DNA of 64,000 nt from Escherichia coli. Lineage in GTDB: Bacteria; Pseudomonadota; Gammaproteobacteria; Enterobacterales; Enterobacteriaceae. The position numbers were made by a program, and so were the translations under genes. Under the pieces are notes generated by a model. That model made no database searches. It was not told the DNA's origin and saw nothing but the letters and a program-made list of their open reading frames with translations. Positions 1 through 64,000 of the stretch are shown one piece after another; position 1 is the stretch's first letter; each line of letters starts with the position of its first letter. The DNA is taken from NCBI RefSeq assembly GCF_030013205.1, contig NZ_CP122648.1. One strand, given 5' to 3'.

Positions 1-1
1 G

Positions 2-1717
2 TACCGCGACCTGCGCGATGGCGATCATTACGCCACGCTGAACACGGCTCAGAAGAAAGCGGTTGATAACGCACTGCGCGACTTCGAACTCTCTGGCATC
101 GGTCTGCCGAAAGAGAAACAGCAGCGTTACGGTGAGATTGCCACTCGTCTTTCCGAGCTGGGCAACCAGTACAGCAACAACGTTCTCGACGCGACAATGG
201 GCTGGACCAAACTCGTTACCGACGAAGCGGAACTGGCGGGGATGCCCGAAAGCGCGCTGGCTGCGGCAAAAGCCCTGGCTGAAGCGAAAGAGCTGGAAGG
301 TTATTTGCTGACGCTGGATATCCCAAGCTACCTGCCGGTAATGACCTACTGCGACAACCAGGCTCTGCGCGAAGAGATGTATCGTGCTTACAGCACCCGC
401 GCTTCCGATCAAGGCCCGAACGCCGGAAAGTGGGACAACAGCAAGGTGATGGAAGAGATCCTCGCGCTGCGTCACGAACTGGCGCAACTGCTGGGTTTTG
501 AAAACTACGCCTTTAAATCCCTTGCCACTAAAATGGCAGAAAATCCGCAGCAGGTGCTTGATTTCTTAACCGATCTGGCAAAACGCGCGCGTCCGCAAGG
601 TGAAAAAGAGCTGGCGCAACTGCGTGCCTTCGCTAAAGCCGAATTTGGCGTGGATGAGTTGCAGCCGTGGGATATCGCGTACTACAGCGAAAAACAAAAA
701 CAGCACCTCTACAGCATCAGTGACGAACAACTGCGTCCGTACTTCCCGGAAAACAAAGCGGTTAACGGCTTGTTTGAAGTGGTGAAACGTATTTACGGCA
801 TCACCGCTAAAGAGCGTAAAGATGTTGATGTCTGGCATCCGGATGTACGTTTCTTCGAACTGTATGACGAGAACAACGAACTGCGCGGCAGCTTCTACCT
901 CGACCTGTATGCCCGTGAAAACAAGCGCGGCGGGGCGTGGATGGATGACTGTGTAGGCCAGATGCGTAAAGCCGACGGTTCGCTGCAAAAACCGGTCGCG
1001 TATCTGACCTGTAACTTCAACCGCCCGGTAAATGGTAAACCGGCGCTGTTTACCCATGACGAAGTGATCACCCTGTTCCACGAGTTCGGTCACGGCCTGC
1101 ACCATATGCTGACCCGCATTGAAACTGCTGGTGTATCTGGTATCAGCGGGGTGCCGTGGGATGCGGTCGAACTGCCGAGCCAGTTTATGGAAAACTGGTG
1201 CTGGGAGCCTGAGGCGCTGGCGTTTATCTCCGGTCACTATGAAACCGGCGAACCGCTGCCGAAGGAGCTGCTGGATAAAATGCTGGCGGCTAAGAACTAC
1301 CAGGCGGCGCTGTTTATTCTGCGCCAGCTGGAGTTCGGCCTGTTTGATTTCCGCCTCCATGCCGAGTTCCGCCCGGATCAGGGAGCGAAAATCCTCGAAA
1401 CTCTGGCAGAAATCAAGAAACTGGTTGCCGTAGTACCGTCTCCATCCTGGGGCCGTTTCCCGCACGCTTTCAGCCATATTTTCGCCGGTGGTTATGCCGC
1501 AGGTTACTACAGCTACCTGTGGGCCGACGTGCTGGCGGCAGATGCCTTCTCGCGCTTTGAGGAAGAGGGCATTTTCAACCGTGAAACCGGACAGTCGTTC
1601 CTCGACAACATTCTGAGCCGTGGCGGTTCAGAAGAGCCGATGGATCTGTTCAAACGCTTCCGTGGTCGTGAACCGCAGCTGGATGCGATGCTGGAGCATT
1701 ACGGCATTAAGGGCTGA
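2..1717 (+). CDS. prlC: oligopeptidase A (M3 zinc metallopeptidase), N-terminus lies before window start
   Basis: Frame open from window start to TGA at 1715-1717; HEFGHGLHH zinc-binding motif; translated sequence and downstream synteny match E. coli PrlC as recalled. Confidence 0.93.
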
Positions 1718-1724
1718 TCATTCA

Positions 1725-2477
1725 GTGAAAATCTGCTTAATTGATGAAACAGGCACCGGAGACGGTGCCTTATCTGTTCTGGCGACCCGCTGGGGGCTGG
1801 AACATGATGAAGACAACCTGATGGCGCTGGTATTAACGCCGGAGCATCTGGAACTGCGCAAGCGTGATGAGCCAAAACTTGGCGGCATCTTTGTTGATTT
1901 TGTTGGCGGGGCGATGGCGCACCGTCGCAAATTCGGCGGCGGACGTGGGGAGGCAGTGGCGAAAGCGGTGGGTATTAAAGGCGATTATTTGCCAGACGTG
2001 GTGGACGCTACCGCAGGGCTGGGGCGCGATGCCTTTGTGCTGGCTTCGGTCGGCTGCCGCGTGCGGATGCTGGAGCGTAATCCGGTGGTTGCTGCATTGC
2101 TCGACGACGGCCTGGCGCGTGGTTATGCGGATGCGGAAATCGGCGGCTGGTTGCAGGAGCGGTTGCAGTTAATTCACGCTTCCAGCCTGACGGCGCTGAC
2201 CGATATTACTCCGCGCCCGCAGGTGGTCTATCTCGATCCGATGTTCCCGCATAAGCAGAAAAGCGCGTTGGTGAAAAAAGAGATGCGAGTCTTTCAGTCG
2301 CTGGTGGGGCCGGATCTTGATGCCGATGGATTGCTGGAGCCTGCACGCTTGCTGGCGACCAAACGCGTGGTGGTAAAGCGCCCGGACTACGCGCCGCCGC
2401 TGGCGAATGTCGCCACGCCAAACGCGGTAGTGACCAAAGGGCATCGCTTTGATATTTATGCCGGAACGCCGGTGTAA
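1725..2477 (+). CDS. rsmJ: 16S rRNA m2G1516 methyltransferase RsmJ
   Basis: 250-codon frame from GTG at 1725 ([10 protein letters not shown]...), 8 nt after the prlC stop; the ORF-track 285-aa version overlaps prlC and is rejected; matches RsmJ/YhiQ as recalled. Confidence 0.88.
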
Positions 2478-2483
2478 AAGTAA

Positions 2484-2511
2484 AGCAGGGTAGCGTTATC
2501 GCTACCCTGCT
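2484..2511. terminator. bidirectional hairpin terminator between convergent rsmJ and dtpB
   Basis: Inverted repeat agcagggtagcg/ttat/cgctaccctgct directly after both stop codons, T-rich on the minus-strand side. Confidence 0.6.
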
Positions 2512-2525
2512 TTCTGCAAGAATAA

Positions 2526-61991: not shown

Positions 61992-61998
61992 GGTTAGC

Positions 61999-62022
61999 GG
62001 CCCTCTTCGTGGGAAGAGGGCC
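61999..62022. terminator. hairpin between convergent ggt and yrhB
   Basis: Palindrome ggccctcttc gtgg gaagagggcc immediately after the ggt stop. Confidence 0.6.
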
Positions 62023-62028
62023 GTATTG

Positions 62029-62313
62029 TCAGGGCAAGCCGAAGGTAGCCTTTTTTATTTCATAATCCTGTAGATATTCTTCCAGCGGCTTTGCCGTTCC
62101 AAGGGAATGAATTTCACCACTGTCTTTATCAATAATAAAAGGTGCGTTACCGGCTAAGCGCGCGGCCTCATCACCAGATTCAAGAAATTCTTGTGATTCG
62201 AAACAGAAATACCAGCCCTGGATAAAACGTCCATGCAGAGTGATGACGACCGGGAGATCTGCATCATCAAGGTAATGGTTCGCTTTCGCGAATGCGTCGT
62301 GAAAAGTAATCAT
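62029..62313 (-). CDS. yrhB: small heat-stable chaperone-like protein
   Basis: 94-aa ORF matching YrhB as recalled. Confidence 0.8.
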   Translation of the reverse strand: MITFHDAFAKANHYLDDADLPVVITLHGRFIQGWYFCFESQEFLESGDEAARLAGNAPFIIDKDSGEIHSLGTAKPLEEYLQDYEIKKATFGLP

Positions 62314-62771
62314 AATTATAATAAATATTATTGTTGATCGTTATATTATTATTCTTGCGTTATACTTTGAGAAAAGGCGCATTCATCTTCGTCAAAGATA
62401 TTATTAAATGCTGATTTTGAAAAAAGTTCATCGGATAATATACAGTCACGAAATAAGTATCTGCTAATATTTTGTGATTTCTTTTTCAGAACGTCGAACG
62501 GGATTTTCTTATTTAAGATATCAGAATCTTATGATTCGGGTGAAATTCTAACTAAATCAACATGTCACTAAAATCATCATAGCCATTAGCTATTTCGGCT
62601 AAAATGGCTAAAATAGAGATTACATGTCTTCGGTCCATCTCACTTAAGGAGTGTAGTTCCGTTGTAAGTTTTTCCATAGCTTGCACTGCTAAATTTCGAA
62701 CAAGGAATTTTCTGCTGGTAATCTCTAAAAAGATGGCATGGTTTACAATGATTTTTGTTACCTTTTGATTA

Positions 62772-63266
62772 TTATGAACAACTGTCCATGATTTCGTTTA
62801 AGAATGAAGAGAAATCACTAAACGAACTGAATATATTTTCTGTGCCAATATTATCTCTAATTTCAAAAAAGTTACTTTTAATGTCATAAGTAAATATTGA
62901 AATGCTATCATCACCGATCACTAACCGTTCTTGTAGATCAGGGTTTATGAAATCATCATTATTTCTATAAAATTCATTTACGGCAAAAAGGTTTTTAACT
63001 GAAGGTTCTGGAATCGAGAGGCTAAATAATCGTAATCCATTAGCTTCGAATCCATCCATTGCTCTTAAAAAAGTAAGATAATCAGGTTGATTATTAAAAA
63101 GAATACTAACTTCATTACATAATTTCTCCAGGCAATTAGTTGAATTAGAATTAAATTCTATTTGGATTATACTTTCAATAAATGATTCCTTGAGCGGTGC
63201 TTCAAATGGATAGTCTAAATCATTCATCATTTTTTTTAATTTATTTATTTGGGTTTTAGTCATCAT
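62772..63266 (-). CDS. yrhA: putative immunity protein for the YhhZ nuclease toxin
   Basis: 164-aa ORF immediately downstream of yhhZ with a 4-nt overlap; AT-rich; naming follows my recollection of the K-12 locus. Confidence 0.6.
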   Translation of the reverse strand: MMTKTQINKLKKMMNDLDYPFEAPLKESFIESIIQIEFNSNSTNCLEKLCNEVSILFNNQPDYLTFLRAMDGFEANGLRLFSLSIPEPSVKNLFAVNEFYRNNDDFINPDLQERLVIGDDSISIFTYDIKSNFFEIRDNIGTENIFSSFSDFSSFLNEIMDSCS

Positions 63267-64000
63267 TTTGTGGGTTCCATAATATTTTTCATGGGAGGAT
63301 AAATTGAGCCAGATGGAATGGCCCAGGGAGTGATTTTGCTTTCACCTACTAATACTCCCTTAGCTATTCGTGATTGCATGTTAGTAAAAACTTTATGATA
63401 TGGTTCGTTTTCGATTAATACTAAATTTTCGAAATCATTAGTACCACCATCATCTAGAGATAGTTTATGGTGAACATTATAATTTAGAGGAACATTGCCC
63501 TTTCTCATTCTTAAAAGGTCTTCGGCGTTGAATCTTCCAGATGCTTCGGAGGTTTTTGCAAGTTTGATAAGAAAATTTTTTCTTACAGTTTTATTAAACT
63601 CCTTTCGTAAGTTAGCTAAGTCTTTTGAAGATCTCTTAATGTATATTATTTCTATTATGTCTATACCATCAAGAAGTTTTTGTTGACCTCTAAGTTTGCC
63701 TAAGTAACTATTTATTTCTGTATATGTATCAACATTAGAACGCTTTGTTAAAAGAATAGATGCTGTTGCTATCGCTATGCCCGCTGTTTTTTCATTTAGT
63801 ATTTGATCATAGCCTTTTATTGCATCTCCACCCAGTTTTTCCGCAGTATCTCTGAATCCTTCAATGTTCCCATTGTATACGCCACCAGCAGCAAGTAGCC
63901 TGCCAATAGCTTTGCTGTTTAACGTTTTGAAACCATTATTTGTTTGGTTTTTTGAATTTGGTAAAAACAAACAGTTAAAATTTTCAGGGAGTGCCAAATA
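63263..64000 (-). CDS. yhhZ: Hcp-fused toxin, C-terminal HNH-nuclease-like domain only; N-terminus lies beyond window end
   Basis: Frame open to the window edge; HNH-like NYNVHHKLSLDDGGTNDFENLVLI near the C-terminus. Confidence 0.7.
   Translation of the reverse strand, partial: YLALPENFNCLFLPNSKNQTNNGFKTLNSKAIGRLLAAGGVYNGNIEGFRDTAEKLGGDAIKGYDQILNEKTAGIAIATASILLTKRSNVDTYTEINSYLGKLRGQQKLLDGIDIIEIIYIKRSSKDLANLRKEFNKTVRKNFLIKLAKTSEASGRFNAEDLLRMRKGNVPLNYNVHHKLSLDDGGTNDFENLVLIENEPYHKVFTNMQSRIAKGVLVGESKITPWAIPSGSIYPPMKNIMEPTK

What the first reader, a model, noticed from the sequence alone, without database searches (positions are those of the whole stretch)
1..64000. Insertion pattern differs from the K-12 MG1655 arrangement as recalled
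Gene content and order match the E. coli prlC-to-yhhZ region, but this window has IS150 between livJ and panM, IS1 inside the rhsB toxin domain, an IS150 remnant with a truncated H-repeat, a different rhsB C-terminal domain and no IS1 next to yrhA. This suggests a non-K-12 lineage rich in IS1 and IS150, possibly B-like. The comparison rests on my recollection of the K-12 map, not an alignment.
Basis: inference. Interest (0 to 1): 0.3.

Follow-up and report, generated by a model that had tools for sequence, protein, structure and literature searches.

The report
Pig-pathogen E. coli insertion pattern, misnamed IS
This is an ordinary stretch of E. coli chromosome from a pig-associated clone. Its differences from K-12 are known mobile elements (IS1397, not IS150, plus IS1) and a reshuffled Rhs toxin tip, and the strain is not related to E. 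coli B.

Summary
The features exist at the stated coordinates, but two labels and the lineage guess are wrong.

- **IS between livJ and panM.** The 1432-bp element at 47068-48499 is IS1397, not IS150. It has no nucleotide similarity to K-12 IS150. It sits in the loop of a REP palindrome with a GTAA duplication.
- **"IS150 remnant".** The piece at 19078-19142 is a 65-bp IS1397 end. It is also present in K-12 and B, so it is not a difference. The real difference there is a 713-bp deletion inside the H-repeat gene yhhI.
- **IS1 in rhsB.** IS1 (21479-22246) does interrupt the rhsB toxin tip.
- **"Different" rhsB tip.** It is K-12's own yibJ-yibG-yibV orphan module from the rhsA locus, here fused to the rhsB core. 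The core also carries a 16-bp frameshift deletion.
- **yrhA.** It is intact, with no IS1.
- **Lineage.** The window is 96.7% identical to both K-12 and B REL606. REL606 has none of these insertions. It is 99.995% identical to porcine strain ETEC4067. Only 17 of 5426 complete genomes are at least 99% identical over window 26400-47060. All 17 are from pigs or wild boar, and two are labelled O139:H1.

Everything belongs to known kinds, so interest is low.

The parts
47068..48499 (-). Complete IS1397 (IS3 family), 1432 bp. The transposase OrfAB runs 48448->47100, with an A-AAA-AAG slippery site near 47969-47975.
   Evidence: RefSeq annotation of the identical sequence as 'IS3-like element IS1397 family transposase, programmed frameshift'. 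Pfam HTH_28 and rve domains, and NCBIfam transpos_IS3 at 299 bits. Terminal inverted repeats TGAACTG[A/C]ACCCCAAA. No DNA similarity to K-12 IS150. The slippery motif was read from the sequence.
47052..47067 (.). Left half of the target REP/palindromic unit (GCCGGATGCGGC) plus one GTAA target-site duplication copy (47064-47067).
   Evidence: The MG1655 empty site reads GCCGGATGCGGCGTAAACGCCTTATCCGGCC. The window has GTAA on both sides of the IS.
48500..48518 (.). Second GTAA duplication copy (48500-48503) plus the right half of the REP (ACGCCTTATCCGGCC).
   Evidence: One search shows a 4-bp overlap of the two MG1655 alignment blocks (20481-20484).
19078..19142 (+). 65-bp solo end (transposase-distal inverted repeat side) of an old IS1397 copy. 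It abuts a half REP at 19059-19077.
   Evidence: 63/65 identical to 47068-47132 (D3). The same fragment is in MG1655. REL606 aligns continuously across it. A 65-bp-only match is seen in genomes lacking full IS1397, including MC4100 and Nico21(DE3).
19141..19720 (-). H-repeat (ISEc1 / yhhI, ISAs1 family) with a 713-bp internal deletion at 19188|19189. The transposase is truncated.
   Evidence: Window 19189-19694 and ..19188 align to MG1655 on either side of a 713-bp gap inside yhhI. Pfam DDE_Tnp_1_assoc matches the N-terminal part only. It is annotated 'ISAs1 family transposase, incomplete'. The deletion allele occurs in 274/5426 genomes.
19750..20272 (-). Imm57 immunity pseudogene (yibV homologue), frameshifted with an internal stop.
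   Evidence: Pfam Imm57 at 4e-45. Annotation. 97% identical to the K-12 rhsA-locus array.
20290..20862 (-). Degenerate orphan Rhs core-end fragment plus an orphan toxin tip (yibS/yibW homologues).
   Evidence: Translation shows a decayed ...DPLGI core end with stops. Weak Tlde1/YkuD-like Pfam hits lie below their cut-offs. Annotation. Alignment to K-12 yibS-yibW.
20896..21363 (-). yibG homologue (Sel1/TPR repeat protein), the presumed immunity gene for the yibJ-type tip.
   Evidence: ORF. Annotation. Weak Sel1/TPR hits. 97% identical to the K-12 yibG region.
21479..22246 (-). Complete IS1 (768 bp). The flanking 8-bp duplication TGTTATAG lies at 21471-21478 and 22247-22254.
   Evidence: The inverted repeats GGTAATGACTCCAACTTA / ...TAAGTTGGCAGCATCACC and the duplication were read directly. 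NCBIfam transpos_IS1. The uninterrupted site in strain 1506D011 shows an 8-bp overlap. 93% identical to K-12 IS1E. This exact variant is 100% identical in pig strains and their plasmids.
21375..26364 (-). rhsB pseudogene. The core (26364->~22640) has a 16-bp frameshift deletion near 23399. The 162-aa yibJ-type C-terminal tip (22639->21375) is split by IS1 after about residue 128.
   Evidence: tblastn and alignment to K-12 RhsB, including the 16-bp gap. Translation with the [10 protein letters not shown] boundary. Annotated 'RHS element core protein, frameshifted'. GC is 60-65% in the core against 27-40% in the tip array.
62772..63266 (-). Intact yrhA. K-12's IS1E target (9 bp) at 62877-62885 is unoccupied.
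   Evidence: The alignment blocks to MG1655 overlap by 9 bp around the IS1E position. NCBIfam YrhA family at 3e-37. yrhA is also intact in REL606.
45890..46992 (+). livJ, intact, ending 75 bp before the IS1397.
   Evidence: ORF. Annotation. In ETEC4067 a C->T change at window 46765 creates a stop.
48628..49011 (-). panM, intact, ending 128 bp from the IS1397.
   Evidence: Annotation of the identical sequence.

Best explanation
The window is the prlC-yhhZ chromosomal region of a pig-associated E. coli clone, the one that includes O139:H1 edema-disease strains (reported as ST1, phylogroup D). Its differences from K-12 are routine events involving known elements.

1. IS1397 is an IS3-family element whose transposase targets REP palindromes. 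It inserted into the loop of the REP between the convergent genes livJ and panM and duplicated GTAA. It disrupts no gene.
2. A much older IS1397 insertion in a REP beside yhhJ survives as a 65-bp end. It is shared with K-12 and B.
3. The H-repeat next to it lost 713 bp.
4. The rhsB core is joined in frame to the yibJ-type toxin tip and to its downstream yibG/yibS/yibW/yibV array, which K-12 keeps as orphans at the rhsA locus. This most likely arose by homologous exchange between the near-identical rhs cores and their tip arrays (inferred).
5. This rhsB is dead twice over: a 16-bp frameshift deletion in the core, and a clone-specific IS1 insertion in the AT-rich tip.
6. K-12's IS1E in yrhA is simply a K-12-side insertion.
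For: - **Lineage.** The window is 99.995% identical to ETEC4067 over 64 kb, with 3 differences. Only 17/5426 genomes are >=99% identical over 20.7 kb, and all are porcine. It is 96.7% identical to MG1655 and REL606. O139:H1 edema-disease strains are reported as ST1, phylogroup D (PMC11052496).
- **IS1397.** Annotation. Domains. REP empty site and GTAA duplication. REP targeting of IS1397 in the literature (PMC1525189).
- **Junction counts.** livJ|IS1397 is in 30 genomes: the 17 clone genomes plus 13 human isolates. Tip|IS1 is exact only in the 17 clone genomes.
- **Relic.** Present in K-12 directly, spanned by the REL606 alignment, and seen as a 65-bp-only match in MC4100 and Nico21(DE3).
- **Rhs tip.** With IS1 removed, window 19722-23110 aligns at 97-98% to K-12 yibJ..yibV at the rhsA locus. 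The swine relative CFSAN018748 covers 79% of window 18700-22400 in two pieces with no IS1 among the annotated features.
- **rhs cores.** The rhsA and rhsB cores are 100% identical over about 1.8 kb within the clone.
- **Base composition.** The tip array is AT-rich.
Against: - ST and phylogroup cannot be read from this window. They rest on strain labels and one paper.
- The route by which the yibJ array came to the rhsB locus is inferred, not shown. It could be an intragenomic exchange or an import by recombination from another strain.
- I could not compare the IS with the original IS1397 reference sequence. The identification relies on RefSeq naming and on 98.7-99.3% identity to copies so named in other strains such as Nissle 1917.
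Confidence: 0.9

Rival explanations
1. One reading: the elements are IS150 copies and the strain is a B-like lineage rich in IS1 and IS150.
For: The element has the IS3-family two-ORF layout and its OrfB is 51% identical to IS150 InsK. yrhA is intact in B as it is here.
Against: There is no DNA similarity to IS150. REL606 lacks every window-specific insertion and keeps the K-12 rhsB-yhhH-yhhI arrangement. Identity to B is 96.75%, against 99.995% to the porcine clone.
Confidence: 0.01
2. The livJ-IS1397-panM insertion is a single ancestral event that marks a clade shared by the porcine clone and the 13 human isolates carrying it.
For: Ecol_316 and KE55 show the same orientation, the same GTAA duplication and the same junction bases. 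The livJ-side junction is 100% identical in all 30 genomes.
Against: - IS1397 targets REP loops, so hits at the same site are expected.
- Z1323HEC0475 has the IS at this REP without the GTAA duplication, which points to a separate event.
- The carriers' flanks differ from the window by 1.5-6%.
- Many closer backbone relatives, such as CFSAN018748, ST2747 and the 98.2% group, are not among the 30 carriers.
Confidence: 0.25
3. The yibJ-type array at rhsB was imported from another strain by recombination, rather than exchanged between this genome's own rhsA and rhsB loci.
For: The clone's own rhsA locus now carries a different tip and an intact Imm57 gene, not the yibJ array. The window's array is only 91% identical to the clone's rhsA Imm57 segment, but 96-98% identical to rhsA-locus arrays of other strains.
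Against: The rhsA and rhsB cores are 100% identical over about 1.8 kb within the clone, which shows ongoing exchange between the two loci. The two routes are not mutually exclusive.
Confidence: 0.4
4. The insertions are assembly artefacts caused by misplaced repeats.
For: None specific.
Against: Both IS elements have intact ends and target-site duplications. The same junctions occur in 17 independently assembled complete genomes.
Confidence: 0.01

Closest known systems
IS1397 (IS3 family; Bachellier et al. 1997; Clement et al. 1999, J Bacteriol 181:6929)
   Same: It is 1432 bp with two overlapping ORFs and an A-AAA-AAG frameshift site. It has TG...CA inverted repeats. It is inserted in the central loop of a REP/palindromic unit with a 4-bp duplication. 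RefSeq names the identical protein an IS1397-family transposase. REP targeting is documented.
   Different: Nothing substantive. This is one more natural copy. Full-length copies occur in 1707/5426 complete E. coli genomes.
IS150 (K-12 insJ/insK, 1443 bp)
   Same: Same IS3 family and same two-ORF frameshift design. OrfB is 51% identical in protein.
   Different: There is no detectable DNA similarity. OrfA is only 28% identical. The length differs by 11 bp. The inverted repeats are different. The REP-loop target seen here is the documented habit of IS1397.
K-12 rhsA-locus orphan array yibJ-yibG-yibS-yibW-yibV
   Same: 97-98% nucleotide identity over 2.6 kb, in the same gene order.
   Different: Here the array lies at the rhsB locus and the yibJ tip is continuous with a full-length core instead of being a 5'-truncated orphan. 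It is also interrupted by IS1.
Orphan Rhs tip exchange by recombination in the conserved core (Poole et al. 2011; Koskiniemi et al. 2014; from my own knowledge)
   Same: A GC-rich core joins at the PxxxxDPxGL boundary to an AT-rich tip/immunity array. Homology with the orphan begins inside the core end, at window 23110.
   Different: The event itself was not observed, and the resulting gene is a pseudogene.
IS1 (768 bp) and K-12 IS1E in yrhA
   Same: 768 bp, standard inverted repeats, 8-bp duplication, InsAB' frameshift transposase.
   Different: This is a variant 93% identical to K-12 IS1E. The exact copy is found mainly in pig strains and their plasmids. It sits in the rhsB tip, not in yrhA.

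Membership tests
IS1397 | IS3-family organisation: orfA (HTH) and orfB (DDE/rve) joined by a -1 frameshift | tested here: met
   Pfam HTH_28 and rve/rve_2. NCBIfam transpos_IS3 at 299 bits against a cut-off of 160. A-AAA-AAG motif. Annotated 'programmed frameshift'.
IS1397 | Insertion into the central loop of an E. coli palindromic unit (REP) with a 3-4 bp duplication | tested here: met
   Empty site GCCGGATGCGGC-GTAA-ACGCCTTATCCGGCC in MG1655, with GTAA duplicated in the window. The relic at 19078 also abuts a half REP.
IS1397 | At least 95% nucleotide identity to the reference IS1397 sequence | not testable with these tools
As proxies, RefSeq names the identical protein an IS1397-family transposase, and the element is 98.7-99.3% identical to copies so named in other strains, including Nissle 1917.
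IS150 | Nucleotide identity to K-12 IS150 (1443 bp, insJ/insK) | tested here: not met
   Megablast gives no hit and blastn gives only a 25-bp chance match. There is no hit anywhere in the window. OrfA is 28% and OrfB 51% identical in protein.
IS1 | 768 bp, about 23-bp terminal inverted repeats, InsA/InsB' transposase, 8-9 bp duplication | tested here: met
   (the empty site in 1506D011).
Rhs polymorphic toxin locus | Large GC-rich YD-repeat core ending in PxxxxDPxGL, followed by a variable AT-rich toxin tip and immunity genes | tested here: met
   96% protein identity to K-12 RhsB over residues 1-1247. [10 protein letters not shown] boundary. GC profile. Imm57. The gene is inactivated by a 16-bp deletion and by IS1.
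E. coli B lineage | Near-identity to REL606 and shared insertion junctions | tested here: not met
   96.75% identity. REL606 lacks IS1397 at livJ/panM and IS1 in rhsB, and has the K-12-type rhsB tip.
Porcine O139:H1-type clone (reported as ST1, phylogroup D) | Near-identity to genomes of that clone, and shared clone-specific junctions | tested here: met
   99.995% identical to ETEC4067. The 17 genomes at >=99% are all from pigs or wild boar, and two are labelled O139:H1. The tip|IS1 junction is exclusive to these 17.
Porcine O139:H1-type clone (reported as ST1, phylogroup D) | MLST alleles, Clermont markers and O/H antigen genes | not testable with these tools
   These loci lie outside the window. 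The ST1/phylogroup D statement comes from PMC11052496.

The most novel reading that the evidence does not exclude
The most novel readings left open are modest. First, the 65-bp IS1397 end beside yhhJ appears in many E. coli genomes that lack any intact IS1397, K-12 and B derivatives among them. It would then be an unreported fossil showing that IS1397 entered the species before the RhsB/H-repeat element settled there. Second, the yibJ-type Rhs tip may be a recurrent IS1 target, with independent hits 8-9 bp apart in unrelated strains, possibly reflecting selection to silence the toxin rather than IS1's taste for AT-rich DNA alone.
Probability: 0.3. Interest if true: 0.2.

Novelty: already known. 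Interest (0 to 1): 0.1.

Why it matters
It matters little beyond correct annotation.

- The work corrects an IS misidentification (IS1397, not IS150) and a wrong lineage guess (porcine O139:H1-type clone, not B).
- The tip|IS1 junction is a clean marker of this 17-genome porcine clone. The livJ|IS1397 junction is not a clean marker, because IS1397 re-targets the same REP loops.
- It illustrates how Rhs tip arrays move between the rhsA and rhsB loci, and how inverted IS1397 copies support large inversions within a clone.

Tried and rejected
- **IS1397 primary papers.** I tried to read PMC94167, PMC95333 and PMC169884. None is held. Element length, duplication size and K-12 status from those papers are therefore cited from memory only. 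PMC1525189 supplied the REP-targeting statement.
- **Function of the 162-aa yibJ-type tip.** There was no Pfam, NCBIfam or PDB sequence hit. Homologues are only E. coli and Salmonella Rhs fragments. An AlphaFold model from a 4-sequence alignment was mediocre (pLDDT 66). Foldseek found nothing significant: the best E-value was 0.04, with scattered weak caspase and GPI-transamidase matches at TM about 0.25-0.3. His30 and Cys70 are invariant, so a clan-CD-like cysteine protease remains a guess and is not claimed.
- **Rfam.** The scan at gathering thresholds found nothing in the window.
- **713-bp H-repeat deletion.** I looked for microhomology at its ends and found none of note.
- **Assembly artefact.** I considered this and rejected it.

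
Full report
**What the window is.**
Annotation transfer and alignment show the window is the E. coli chromosomal segment prlC-rsmJ-dtpB-uspA/B-pitA-yhiN..yhhJ-[Rhs region]-nikRABCDE-..-ftsYEX-rpoH-livJ-[IS]-panM-livKHMGF-ugpBAECQ-ggt-yrhB-yrhA-tssD (the yhhZ homologue). It is inverted relative to MG1655 3.582-3.645 Mb. The collinear backbone is 96.68% identical to MG1655 and 96.75% to B REL606. It is 99.995% identical to the porcine strain ETEC4067 (NZ_CP122685.1, 261659-325659), differing at only three positions: 20242, 41360 and 46765.

**The element between livJ and panM.**
A complete 1432-bp insertion sequence lies at 47068-48499, with its genes on the minus strand. 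It is not IS150.
- K-12 IS150 (fetched) gives no megablast hit and only a 25-bp chance blastn match to it. IS150 matches nothing anywhere in the window.
- At protein level OrfB is 51% and OrfA 28% identical to IS150 InsK and InsJ. The two elements share the IS3 family but are different elements.
- RefSeq annotates the identical sequence as 'IS3-like element IS1397 family transposase, programmed frameshift'.
- Pfam and NCBIfam confirm an HTH OrfA and an rve/DDE OrfB. An A-AAA-AAG slippery motif joins the two frames.
- The ends are TGAACTG[A/C]ACCCCAAA inverted repeats.
- The MG1655 empty site is a textbook REP, GCCGGATGCGGC-GTAA-ACGCCTTATCCGGCC. The IS sits in its loop with GTAA duplicated.

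Insertion into REP/palindromic-unit loops is the documented hallmark of IS1397 (PMC1525189 and the Clement 1999 title cited there). The IS lies between the 3' ends of two convergent genes, 75 bp after livJ and 128 bp after panM, so it interrupts neither.

**The 'IS150 remnant'.**
Window 19078-19142 is a 65-bp copy of the same IS1397 end, 63/65 identical to 47068-47132. It abuts a half REP, AGGCCGGATAAGGCGTTTA. Its last bases overlap the stop codon of the H-repeat transposase gene yhhI.

This fragment and both of its junctions are present in MG1655. REL606 aligns continuously across the same region. A search with the IS alone found full-length IS1397 in 1707 of 5426 complete genomes. About 1790 further genomes had no full-length match, and every such genome listed showed only the 65-bp piece. 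These included K-12 MC4100 and the B derivative Nico21(DE3). So this is an old relic and not a difference from K-12.

The true local difference is a 713-bp deletion inside yhhI (ISEc1, ISAs1 family) at 19188|19189. That allele occurs in 274 genomes.

**The Rhs region.**
The rhsB core (26364 down to about 22640) is 96% identical in protein to K-12 RhsB. It carries a 16-bp deletion near 23399 that shifts the frame. After the [10 protein letters not shown] boundary comes a 162-aa tip unrelated to K-12's RhsB tip.

A complete 768-bp IS1 (21479-22246) splits this tip after about residue 128, with an 8-bp TGTTATAG duplication. Strain 1506D011 has the uninterrupted sequence, which confirms the empty site.

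With IS1 removed, window 19722-23110 aligns at 97-98% to K-12's own rhsA-locus orphan array, yibJ-yibG-yibS-yibW-yibV. So the 'different C-terminal domain' is K-12's yibJ tip, here continuous with a full-length core at the rhsB locus.
- The array is AT-rich (27-40% GC) against a 60-65% GC core.
- Within the clone the rhsA and rhsB cores are 100% identical over about 1.8 kb.
- The clone's rhsA locus now carries another tip and an intact Imm57 gene.
- The swine relative CFSAN018748 (98.9% backbone identity) covers 79% of window 18700-22400 in two pieces, with no IS1 among the annotated features.

I infer that homologous exchange through the conserved core put the yibJ array at rhsB before the clone arose, and that IS1 arrived later. 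Whether the exchange was intragenomic or came from an imported allele is open.

**yrhA.**
yrhA is intact at 62772-63266. The two MG1655 alignment blocks overlap by the 9 bp that K-12 duplicates around IS1E. yrhA is intact in REL606 too, so the IS1 there is a K-12-side event.

| Junction | Window query | Genomes with the junction (of 5426) | Which genomes |
|---|---|---|---|
| livJ\|IS1397 | 46980-47155 | 30 | 17 pig or wild-boar isolates plus 13 human isolates |
| tip\|IS1 | 21390-21570 | 17 (exact) | the same 17 pig or wild-boar isolates |
| REP\|relic\|H-repeat deletion | 19030-19260 | 274 (full length) | K-12 derivatives match only up to the deletion point |

None of the first two junctions is in K-12 or B.

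**Lineage.**
Over 20.7 kb of IS-free backbone, only 17 genomes are at least 99% identical. All are from pigs or wild boar (Belgian ETEC40xx/ETEC63xx/ETEC17xx, K_EC180, Japanese EC556/571/581, French P15-25 and W13-16). Two are labelled O139:H1. The next-best genomes are at 98.9% and at most 98.5%.

O139:H1 edema-disease E. coli are reported as ST1, phylogroup D (PMC11052496). REL606 has K-12's rhsB-yhhH-yhhI arrangement and no IS at livJ/panM. The 'B-like' guess is therefore refuted.

IS load in the clone is unremarkable. IS1397 gives 4-5 matches per chromosome including the relic. IS1 gives 11-22 matches against a species median of 10-11.

**Is the IS1397 junction a lineage marker?**
Probably not a clean one. 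Ecol_316 and KE55 carry the IS at the same REP, in the same orientation and with the same GTAA duplication. Z1323HEC0475 has it without the GTAA duplication, which suggests a separate event. Closer backbone relatives of the window are not among the 30 carriers. The tip|IS1 junction is clone-specific and is the better marker.

**Verdict.**
Two labels (IS150, and the remnant counted as a difference) and the lineage inference are wrong. Everything here belongs to well-described kinds: IS1397, IS1, the H-repeat, and Rhs tip and orphan arrays. Novelty is nil and interest is low.

Noticed in passing
L009 (W13-16) 1-4101; L010 (ETEC1748) 1-4101; L016 (ETEC4067) 30744-32092; window 47068-48499: The clone has a second IS1397 in the opposite orientation between ysaA and avtA, about 143 kb away. 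In W13-16 and ETEC1748 the livJ-side IS1397 is followed by ysaA-yiaJ instead of panM. This implies a large inversion by recombination between the two IS copies. ETEC1748 also has the rhs tip region on the opposite strand to nik-livJ, suggesting a further rearrangement within rhsB.
   Followed up: partly
L008 (EC556) 1-3751: In the Japanese members of the clone (EC556; EC571 and EC581 probably likewise) an IS66-family ISCro1 has inserted into the livJ-side IS1397 and truncated its transposase gene.
   Followed up: partly
window 21471-21478 vs L014 (CUPS04) 10741/11508: An unrelated strain has IS1 in the same yibJ-type tip, there an orphan at the rhsA locus. It sits 8-9 bp away with a different duplication (GGTCTTTTG against TGTTATAG). 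Three more genomes (BDSF8-3, QEC11-421, EC3) have IS1A/B-type copies within a few hundred bp. This may be an IS1 hot spot in AT-rich DNA.
   Followed up: partly
window ~23396-23402: A 16-bp deletion relative to K-12 rhsB and rhsA shifts the rhsB core frame at about residue 992. It is a second, independent inactivation besides IS1.
   Followed up: yes
window 46765: The window has C here and an intact livJ. ETEC4067 has T, giving an internal stop, and livJ is annotated there as a pseudogene. The window's source is therefore a close sibling of that strain and not the strain itself.
   Followed up: yes
window 5471-5542 and 55986-56161: Intergenic repeat content differs from K-12. K-12 has a two-REP cluster of about 150 bp between pitA and uspB that is absent here. 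Between ugpB and ugpA, K-12's REP pair is replaced by a 174-bp stretch with CCCTCTCCC...GGGAGAGGG palindromes, which recurs at 36819-36858.
   Followed up: partly
window 22639-21375 (IS1 removed), alignment A2: The yibJ-type toxin tip has no family assignment. His30 (in GGHG) and Cys70 (in LFSC) are invariant among the E. coli and Salmonella homologues. The structure model is mediocre and gives only non-significant matches to caspase and GPI-transamidase folds.
   Followed up: partly
window 10225-11813: The yhiL-like DUF4049 gene is frameshifted, as in K-12 where yhiL is also a pseudogene. It is intact in REL606.
   Followed up: no
window 22665-26365 vs L016 11455-15159: The rhsB core is 100% identical to the same clone's rhsA core across about 1.8 kb, yet only 93-98% identical to the K-12 cores. 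The paralogues evolve in concert within each genome.
   Followed up: partly
window 48590, 33835, 62606: There are small in-frame-sized indels relative to K-12: a 12-bp insertion just downstream of panM, a 12-bp deletion near the start of yhhS, and a 9-bp insertion between yrhB and yrhA.
   Followed up: no
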